Source of the DNA: Escherichia coli
GTDB lineage: Bacteria > Pseudomonadota > Gammaproteobacteria > Enterobacterales > Enterobacteriaceae
Assembly: GCF_050920415.1 (NCBI RefSeq)
Contig: NZ_CP169309.1
Length of the DNA: 64,000 nucleotides
Strand: one strand, 5' to 3'
Shown here: positions 56,097 through 56,401 of the stretch, piece after piece
Numbering within the stretch: the stretch's first letter is position 1
Layout of the letters: the number at the start of each line of letters is the position of its first letter
Program-made: the position numbers and the translations under genes
The notes under the pieces: generated by a model
Database searches by the model: none
Told to the model about the DNA's origin: nothing
What the model saw: the letters and a program-made list of their open reading frames with translations, nothing else

Positions 56097-56112
56097 TTTT
56101 CATCATTGATAT

Positions 56113-56141
56113 AAAAGGGCTGCCGACGGGCGGCCTTTTTT
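56113..56141 (+). terminator. Putative glmS terminator (region of the attTn7 insertion point)
   Basis: aaaagggctgccgacgggcggcctttttt: a GC-rich imperfect hairpin plus T-run starting 17 nt after the glmS stop. Confidence 0.5.
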
Positions 56142-56401
56142 ATAAAGTGTATCAACGATTTATTATTGATGTACAAATTAATATAAATATATTCTGAATT
56201 ATTGGTGATGTCCTATTACGCACTTGATTTTTTACTGTTTTAATAATATTTATATAATAAATTTATATTTAATTTCGCATAATTAATATTATTTTTAGAT
56301 AAAAATACCCCTTTGGTGTACTATGCCTTTGAATCATAAAATCACTTATTAATTTAAGTTATGATTTAGACTGAAGGATATATTATATCAATGGAGTTTG
56401 T

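What the first reader, a model, noticed from the sequence alone, without database searches (positions are those of the whole stretch)
56097..56145. Tn7 attachment region downstream of glmS is unoccupied
glmS ends at 56096 and is followed by a GC hairpin plus T-run, then directly by AT-rich islet sequence. No Tn7-like ends or tns genes are present, so the fimbrial islet is not a Tn7-family element despite sitting at this classic integration hotspot.
Basis: partly seen in the sequence, partly recalled or inferred. Interest (0 to 1): 0.3.

Follow-up and report, generated by a model that had tools for sequence, protein, structure and literature searches.

The report
Empty Tn7 site beside lpf2 fimbrial operon
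The Tn7 docking site just after the glmS gene is intact and empty, and the neighbouring fimbrial gene cluster is the already known lpf2/lpfO113 operon rather than a Tn7-type transposon, so this is an ordinary locus.

Summary
glmS ends at 56096. A strong hairpin with a T-run follows at 56113-56141 (dG -21.6 kcal/mol, z -4.5), then 23% G+C DNA up to lpfA.

Real Tn7 and Tn7-like insertions in other E. coli genomes duplicate 5 bp at +21..+25 (or +20..+24) after the glmS stop. One control lacks lpf2 and two carry it. Here that target would be 56117-56121 (GGGCT), in the 5' arm of the hairpin, and the sequence runs through it unbroken.

The TnsD-binding site (56061-56096) differs from K-12 at three wobble positions only. 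None of the seven published critical bases is changed.

No Tn7 ends, TnsB-site repeats, duplications or tns genes were found, whereas positive controls scored perfectly or nearly so.

One refinement: homology to K-12 stops at 56097 and resumes at 62861. The terminator and the insertion point therefore belong to the lpf2-type segment, which replaces K-12's 207 bp rather than being inserted into it. The same layout occurs in Pseudocitrobacter vendiensis.

In this window IS2 (59475-60805) disrupts the usher gene lpfC.

Already known; low interest.

The parts
54267..56096 (+). glmS (glutamine--fructose-6-phosphate transaminase), 609 aa, stop TAA at 56094-56096
   Evidence: ORF list, Pfam GATase and SIS domains, RefSeq annotation of the near-identical genome
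56061..56096 (+). TnsD-binding part of attTn7 (+58 to +23): the last 11 glmS codons plus the stop codon
   Evidence: Numbering was derived from real Tn7 duplications in L004 and L005 and from PMC2918618. There are three differences from K-12, at 56063, 56069 and 56084 (+56, +50, +35), all third codon positions. The critical bases +31, +33, +42, +43, +45, +51 and +54 (56088, 56086, 56077, 56076, 56074, 56068, 56065) are unchanged.
56117..56121 (.). Predicted Tn7 insertion point (5-bp target GGGCT, centre 56119); intact and unoccupied
   Evidence: Real insertions duplicate +21..+25 after the stop (L004 AAGGG, L005 GCGGG) or +20..+24 (L008 GAAGG). The window sequence is continuous here.
56113..56141 (+). 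glmS intrinsic-terminator-like hairpin: stem 56113-56124 / 56129-56140, loop GACG, T-run 56136-56141
   Evidence: dG -21.6 kcal/mol, z -4.54. The hairpin is conserved in all lpf2-type loci examined, including Pseudocitrobacter; 3 of 11 pairs show compensatory changes.
56142..56401 (+). AT-rich region upstream of lpfA (about 23% G+C) with promoter-like hexamers, for example 56231-56258
   Evidence: Composition profile and promoter scan. The promoter role is inferred, not shown.
56402..56974 (+). lpfA-O113 type fimbrial major subunit
   Evidence: Pfam Fimbrial, 3.5e-24; RefSeq name
57022..57753 (+). lpfB periplasmic chaperone
   Evidence: Pfam PapD_N and PapD_C; RefSeq name
57778..59474 (+). lpfC usher, 5' part, cut off by IS2
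   Evidence: Pfam PapC_N plus Usher profile positions 1-361. The gene is intact (2523 bp) in the reference genome.
59475..60805 (-). IS2 (1331 bp) with 5-bp duplication CTCTC at 59470-59474 and 60806-60810; OrfA 60349-60759 and OrfB 59486-60391
   Evidence: Absent from the otherwise identical genome. Terminal inverted repeats at 59483-59515 and 60764-60796. Pfam HTH_Tnp_1 and rve. Annotated as an IS2 family transposase in other genomes. Ends read directly.
60806..61636 (+). lpfC usher, 3' part
   Evidence: Pfam Usher profile positions 365-549 plus PapC_C
61646..62719 (+). lpfD fimbrial subunit (357 aa)
   Evidence: Pfam Fimbrial; RefSeq 'fimbrial protein'
62720..62860 (+). lpf2-type right-hand non-coding segment, with a hairpin at 62726-62752 just after lpfD
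   Evidence: No counterpart in K-12. The hairpin appears. The segment is 84% identical to Pseudocitrobacter.
62861..62966 (+). Shared pstS promoter and leader with CTGTCAT repeats; homology to K-12 resumes here
   Evidence: Naming the repeats Pho boxes rests on my own knowledge.

Best explanation
Positions 56097-56145 are the 3' untranslated end of glmS. They hold its rho-independent terminator and, inside the 5' arm of that hairpin, the point where Tn7 would insert. TnsD would bind the last 36 bp of glmS (56061-56096). TnsC and TnsAB would then insert the element about 23 bp downstream, right end towards glmS, duplicating 56117-56121. No such event has happened here, so the site is an empty and apparently usable attTn7.

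The DNA from 56098 to 62860 is the known lpf2/lpfO113 chaperone-usher fimbrial operon (lpfABCD). It fills the whole glmS-pstS interval and supplies the glmS terminator itself. It is one of several non-homologous alternatives at this locus and is exchanged by homologous recombination, not by transposition.

Shown here: the site is empty, Tn7 features are absent, Tn7 uses the lpf2-type site in other strains, the same layout is found in another genus, and the identity pattern is mosaic. Inferred: that the hairpin terminates transcription, that the site is competent for Tn7, and that recombination is the mode of exchange.
For: Site geometry
- glmS and its stop codon.
- Hairpin energy and z-score. 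Its conservation with compensatory pairs in five lpf2-type sequences.
- Real Tn7 junctions give the position of the duplication, and they show that Tn7 and a second Tn7-like element insert between glmS and lpfA2 in lpf2-bearing strains.
- The TnsD site has only wobble changes, and one of them (GTA at +35) is also present in the occupied sites of L004 and L008.

Absence of Tn7 features
- No Tn7 ends, TnsB sites, duplications or Tns homologues.
- Islet ORFs are fimbrial subunit, chaperone, usher and subunit, plus IS2.

Nature of the islet
- Homology to K-12 ends at 56097 and resumes at 62861, and K-12's 207-bp segment has no similarity to the islet edges.
- Pseudocitrobacter vendiensis has the same order glmS, hairpin, lpfABCD, pstS. 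Its flanks and both non-coding edges are at the between-genus baseline (78-86% identity), while the stretch from the 3' part of lpfB to lpfD is 95-100% identical.
- The operon is not found on true plasmids or phages.
- The literature places the lpf operon between glmS and pstS in several E. coli strains: PMC2608844.
Against: Termination at the hairpin and TnsD binding to this exact 36-bp variant were not tested experimentally. Two of the three wobble variants (+50 T, +56 A) were not seen in the three occupied sites I inspected. Only one genome outside Escherichia was available for judging how old the locus is. A Tn7 that inserted and was later removed by recombination with an empty allele would leave no trace.
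Confidence: 0.93

Rival explanations
1. The fimbrial islet is the remnant cargo of an ancient Tn7-like element that inserted at attTn7 and later lost its tns genes and ends.
For: It sits exactly at the glmS-proximal hotspot. Tn7-family elements do carry varied cargo at this site.
Against: The non-homologous segment starts one base after the stop codon, not at +21..+25. No end-like repeats, duplication or Tns similarity were found, even at permissive thresholds. Both edges are conserved between genera at baseline divergence. Tn7 elements insert upstream of the operon inside the lpf2-type terminator, so that terminator behaves as target DNA, not as element DNA.
Confidence: 0.02
2. The islet was delivered by some other site-specific or IS-mediated mobile element, such as an integrase island or a composite transposon.
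For: An IS2 copy lies inside the islet. The islet's G+C is lower than that of its flanks.
Against: The IS2 is a single copy with its own 5-bp duplication inside lpfC and is absent from a 99.985% identical genome, so it is a recent secondary event. No integrase gene, no direct repeats at the edges and no tRNA gene were found. No copy occurs on true plasmids or phages.
Confidence: 0.03
3. The site is empty because it is a poor Tn7 target: the three substitutions in the TnsD site, or the hairpin lying 2 nt closer to the stop codon, reduce its use.
For: The +50 T and +56 A variants were not present in the three occupied sites inspected.
Against: All three changes are at wobble positions, which vary among natural attTn7 sites, and the seven bases shown to matter are unchanged (PMC2918618). 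The sequence at the insertion point is reported not to matter. Emptiness is also the normal state: only 118 of 5426 complete E. coli genomes carry the Tn7 left end at all.
Confidence: 0.05

Closest known systems
E. coli attTn7 (glmS terminator target of Tn7; Gay 1986, and Mitra 2010 = PMC2918618)
   Same: The TnsD-binding sequence lies in the last 36 bp of glmS with all critical bases kept. The predicted insertion point is about 23 bp downstream, inside the glmS terminator hairpin. This is the same geometry as in the real insertions of L004, L005 and L008.
   Different: The DNA downstream of the stop codon is unrelated to K-12's. It is a different hairpin, and the target falls in its 5' arm instead of the 3' arm. 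The predicted duplication is GGGCT rather than GCGGG.
lpf2 / lpfO113 long polar fimbria operon between glmS and pstS (reported for O157 Sakai, E24377A, SE11, SMS-3-5)
   Same: Same position and same gene order (major subunit, chaperone, usher, subunit). RefSeq names the genes lpfA-, lpfB- and lpfC-O113. The literature describes this location.
   Different: This allele is rare: only 14 of about 5400 genomes are at least 95% identical across the glmS-lpfA junction. Within the operon it is 72-90% identical to a common O113 allele. Its lpfB-lpfD part is 95-100% identical to Pseudocitrobacter vendiensis. Its usher gene is disrupted by IS2.
Tn7 and Tn7-like elements at glmS (for example in strains 2013C-4465 and JX21CE8)
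   Same: They use the same chromosomal interval.
   Different: None of their defining parts is present in the window: tnsABCDE, TGTGGG... ends with 22-bp TnsB sites, or a 5-bp duplication.

Membership tests
attTn7 (TnsD-dependent Tn7 attachment site) | A 36-bp TnsD-binding sequence at the 3' end of glmS, with conserved non-wobble bases including +31, +33, +42, +43, +45, +51 and +54 | tested here: met
   56061-56096 differs from K-12 at three wobble positions only. The critical positions are taken from PMC2918618.
attTn7 (TnsD-dependent Tn7 attachment site) | Actual TnsD binding and Tn7 insertion at about +0 | not testable with these tools
   This needs a gel shift or a mini-Tn7 assay. Indirect support comes from Tn7 and a Tn7-like element inserted in the homologous lpf2-type terminator of other strains.
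Tn7-family transposon (as the identity of the islet) | tnsA, tnsB and tnsC plus a target selector (tnsD/tniQ) | tested here: not met
   tblastn with two TnsABCDE sets gave a best E of 0.06, at 17636-17902, outside the islet. Pfam on the islet ORFs shows fimbrial proteins and an IS3-family transposase only. The RefSeq annotation lists no tns genes.
Tn7-family transposon (as the identity of the islet) | TGT...ACA termini with inverted repeats and several 22-bp TnsB sites | tested here: not met
   The positive controls scored 12/12 and 11/12; the islet edges scored 8/12, which is chance level.
Tn7-family transposon (as the identity of the islet) | A 5-bp target duplication about 20-25 bp downstream of the glmS stop | tested here: not met
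   The best candidate matched 3 of 5 bases. The non-homologous DNA starts at +2 after the stop.
Chaperone-usher fimbrial operon, lpf2/lpfO113 type | Major subunit, PapD-like chaperone, usher and a further fimbrial subunit, located between glmS and pstS | tested here: met
   Pfam, RefSeq names, and the location reported in the literature. The usher is interrupted by IS2 in this window.
Rho-independent (intrinsic) terminator | A G+C-rich stem-loop directly followed by a U-run, downstream of a stop codon | tested here: met
   (dG -21.6 kcal/mol, z -4.5) and the T-run at 56136-56141. Structural conservation is shown. Termination itself was not measured.
IS2 (IS3 family) | A 1331-bp element with OrfA and OrfB, imperfect terminal inverted repeats and a 5-bp duplication | tested here: met

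The most novel reading that the evidence does not exclude
The glmS-pstS interval acts as a cassette-exchange locus that works without Tn7. In it, whole or partial fimbrial operons are swapped between enterobacterial genera by recombination within shared sequence. This E. coli lineage and Pseudocitrobacter vendiensis share a segment from the 3' part of lpfB to lpfD at 95-100% identity, inside flanks that are only 80-90% identical. That segment is 72-90% identical to the common E. coli O113 allele. This points to a recent transfer of the adhesin-encoding part of the operon between genera.
Probability: 0.6. Interest if true: 0.3.

Novelty: already known. Interest (0 to 1): 0.1.

Why it matters
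The practical value is small. It tells anyone who wants to place a mini-Tn7 in this strain where it should land: about 56119, breaking the glmS terminator just upstream of the lpfA control region. It also shows that the lpf2 operon should not be counted as a Tn7-borne island. In addition, it shows that in lpf2-bearing strains the Tn7 insertion point lies in DNA that varies with the lpf2 allele, which fits the published finding that only the glmS coding end matters for targeting.

Tried and rejected
- The simple terminator scan did not list the glmS hairpin.
- The 166-nt sequence I first used as 'Tn7R' turned out to be the left, integron-side end. The real right-end junction was then read from the fetched loci.
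- I looked for similarity between K-12's 207-bp glmS-pstS segment and the non-coding edges of both islet alleles, to test for a deletion remnant. All local alignment scores fell within the shuffle range.
- I asked whether divergence from K-12 peaks at the islet flanks, which would suggest an imported block. It does not clearly do so: the whole window is 91-100% identical per 500 bp, and values of 92-95% occur elsewhere too.
- An Rfam scan of 54000-63200 at E <= 1 found nothing.
- Plasmid and phage searches for a carrier of the operon gave only four records of 1.0-4.9 Mb, far too large for plasmids and most likely mislabelled chromosomal DNA, and no phage.
- The genome-contig scan with LpfA returned only two loci. 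One was a 1-kb contig of a Collinsella MAG, probably contamination. The age of the locus across Enterobacteriaceae therefore rests on a single outgroup.

Full report
**What is at the coordinates**

The window is an E. coli chromosome segment running from rho through oriC, the atp operon, glmU and glmS to a fimbrial operon and pstS. It is 99.985% identical to strain MFDS1022581 (NZ_CP169399.1), apart from one extra 1.3-kb insertion.

glmS is the 609-aa ORF 54267-56096, with its stop codon TAA at 56094-56096. The stretch 56097-56150 folds into a 12-pair stem, 56113-56124 paired with 56129-56140, with loop GACG, and ends in a T-run at 56136-56141. The folding energy is -21.6 kcal/mol against -9.7 +/- 2.6 for shuffles, z -4.54. 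After the hairpin, G+C drops to 23% until lpfA starts at 56402.

**Where Tn7 would insert, and whether it has**

I fetched real occupied sites for comparison.
- In CFSAN051542 (L005), which has a K-12-like locus, Tn7 lies after glmS with the duplication GCGGG at +21..+25 from the stop. The right end, TGTGGGCGGACAATAAAGTC..., faces glmS.
- In the STEC strain 2013C-4465 (L004), which carries the O157-type lpf2 operon, Tn7 (14,067 bp, tnsABCDE plus a class 2 integron) lies between glmS and lpfA2 with the duplication AAGGG at +21..+25.
- In JX21CE8 (L008), a different Tn7-like element of about 19.6 kb lies at the same place with the duplication GAAGG.

Taking the centre of the duplication as position 0, as in PMC2918618, the TnsD-binding site +23..+58 corresponds to 56096 back to 56061 in the window. 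The predicted target is 56117-56121 (GGGCT), in the 5' arm of the hairpin. The window sequence runs straight through this point.

The TnsD site differs from K-12 at 56063, 56069 and 56084, which are all third codon positions. The seven bases reported to matter for binding and transposition (+31, +33, +42, +43, +45, +51, +54) are unchanged. The same paper reports that the sequence at the insertion point itself is not required.

**Tests for Tn7 features in or around the islet**
- The Tn7 terminal 13-mer with up to three mismatches gave 14 hits in 64 kb against 19 expected. None was near either islet edge.
- A degenerate 22-bp TnsB-site consensus gave no hit.
- No inverted repeat joins the two edges. 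The only meaningful pair belongs to the insertion sequence.
- A direct scan for TGT...ACA ends with a 5-bp duplication gave a best of 3/5 and 8/12, the same as shuffles. The two real elements scored 5/5 with 12/12 and 5/5 with 11/12.
- tblastn with both TnsABCDE sets found nothing below E = 0.06. That best hit lies at 17636-17902, which corresponds to the AAA+ ATPase gene yifB in the matching genome.
- blastn of the whole Tn7 against the window found nothing.
- Pfam identifies the islet ORFs as a fimbrial subunit, a PapD-type chaperone, an usher in two pieces, a second fimbrial subunit and an IS3-family OrfA/OrfB pair.

The islet is therefore not a Tn7-family element, and the attachment site is empty.

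Homology to K-12 stops at 56097, one base after the stop codon, and resumes at 62861, at the proximal CTGTCAT repeats of the pstS promoter. K-12 has 207 bp in between, including its own terminator. That segment shows no detectable similarity to the non-coding edges of either lpf2 allele.

The hairpin and the Tn7 insertion point therefore belong to the lpf2-type segment, which replaces the K-12 segment rather than interrupting it. The hairpin is the one non-coding element kept in all lpf2-type loci I aligned: four O113-type E. coli, the O157-type empty site and Pseudocitrobacter. The consensus structure has 11 pairs, 3 of them with compensatory changes. This fits a working terminator.

**What the islet is and how it moves**

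RefSeq names the genes lpfA-, lpfB- and lpfC-O113 plus a fimbrial protein. The lpf operon between glmS and pstS has been described in Sakai, E24377A, SE11 and SMS-3-5 (PMC2608844). At least 1909 of 5426 complete E. coli genomes hold the O113-type junction, and several hundred more hold the O157 type.

Pseudocitrobacter vendiensis has the same order: glmS, hairpin, lpfABCD, pstS. Against the window, its identities are:
- glmU 82%, glmS 86% and pstS 86%, which matches the K-12 versus Pseudocitrobacter baseline.
- Left non-coding region 78%, lpfA 87%, right non-coding region 84%.
- lpfB 93%, lpfC 97%, lpfD 99%.

The jump to high identity occurs near 57200, and the drop back occurs just after the lpfD stop.

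Against a common E. coli O113 allele (KE47), the window is 92-99% identical in the flanks but only 72-90% identical inside the operon. No true plasmid or phage carries the operon.

I read this as an old resident of the interval whose inner part was recently exchanged between genera by homologous recombination. That reading is an inference from the mosaic identity pattern and rests on one outgroup.

**Secondary event in this window**

IS2 (1331 bp, 59475-60805, minus strand) has inserted into lpfC with the duplication CTCTC. The fimbrial usher is therefore disrupted here. No complete E. coli genome in the collection has this junction.

**Verdict**

An empty attTn7 is the normal state: only 118 of 5426 genomes carry the Tn7 left end anywhere. 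The lpf2 locus and its position are already described.

Noticed in passing
window 59475-60805 (duplication at 59470-59474 and 60806-60810): IS2 has inserted in the usher gene lpfC, splitting it into 57778-59474 and 60806-61636. The insertion is absent from the otherwise 99.985% identical genome NZ_CP169399.1, and the junction is not found in any complete E. coli genome of the collection. The lpf2 fimbriae are probably not assembled in this strain.
   Followed up: yes
window about 57200-62730; L010 about 8500-12680: The stretch from the 3' part of lpfB through lpfC to lpfD is 95-100% identical to Pseudocitrobacter vendiensis. The flanking glmU, glmS, pstS and both non-coding edges are only 72-90% identical, and the common E. 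coli O113 allele is only 72-90% identical in this stretch. This looks like a recent recombinational exchange of part of the operon between genera.
   Followed up: partly
window 51615-52493 (ORF 51761-52459): A Bax inhibitor-1/YccA family gene lies between atpC and glmU. K-12 has only about 60 bp there. Pseudocitrobacter has a 74% identical counterpart.
   Followed up: partly
L008 (NZ_CP178438.1) 386-20018; also NZ_AP045789.1 and NZ_AP045800.1: A Tn7-like element of about 19.6 kb, with TnsABCDE distinct from Tn7 and ends TGTGGGATGGCAAAATAG..., sits at attTn7 in front of lpfA2. It carries Tn3/TEM-1, dfrA1, an integron integrase and two serine protease genes.
   Followed up: partly
whole window compared with K-12 (L006 + L007): The window is only about 95-97% identical to K-12 over most core genes. 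Only 14 of about 5400 genomes are at least 95% identical at the glmS-lpfA junction. The source therefore belongs to a divergent, rarely sequenced E. coli lineage. ilvG and the yifN-like PemK/MazF toxin gene (about 6803-7252) are intact here but are pseudogenes in K-12.
   Followed up: no
window 62775-62800, minus strand: TGTCAT repeats spaced 11 bp apart (CCATGTCATCTTTTTGTCATGTCATGTG) lie in the lpf2-type segment upstream of the pstS promoter. They resemble Pho boxes but are in the opposite orientation. K-12 has differently placed upstream CTGTCA repeats in its own 207-bp segment.
   Followed up: no
L009 (JAIJJM010000969.1, 1038 bp): A contig binned into a Collinsella MAG encodes an LpfA 93% identical to the window's. 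This is most likely Enterobacteriaceae contamination of the bin.
   Followed up: no
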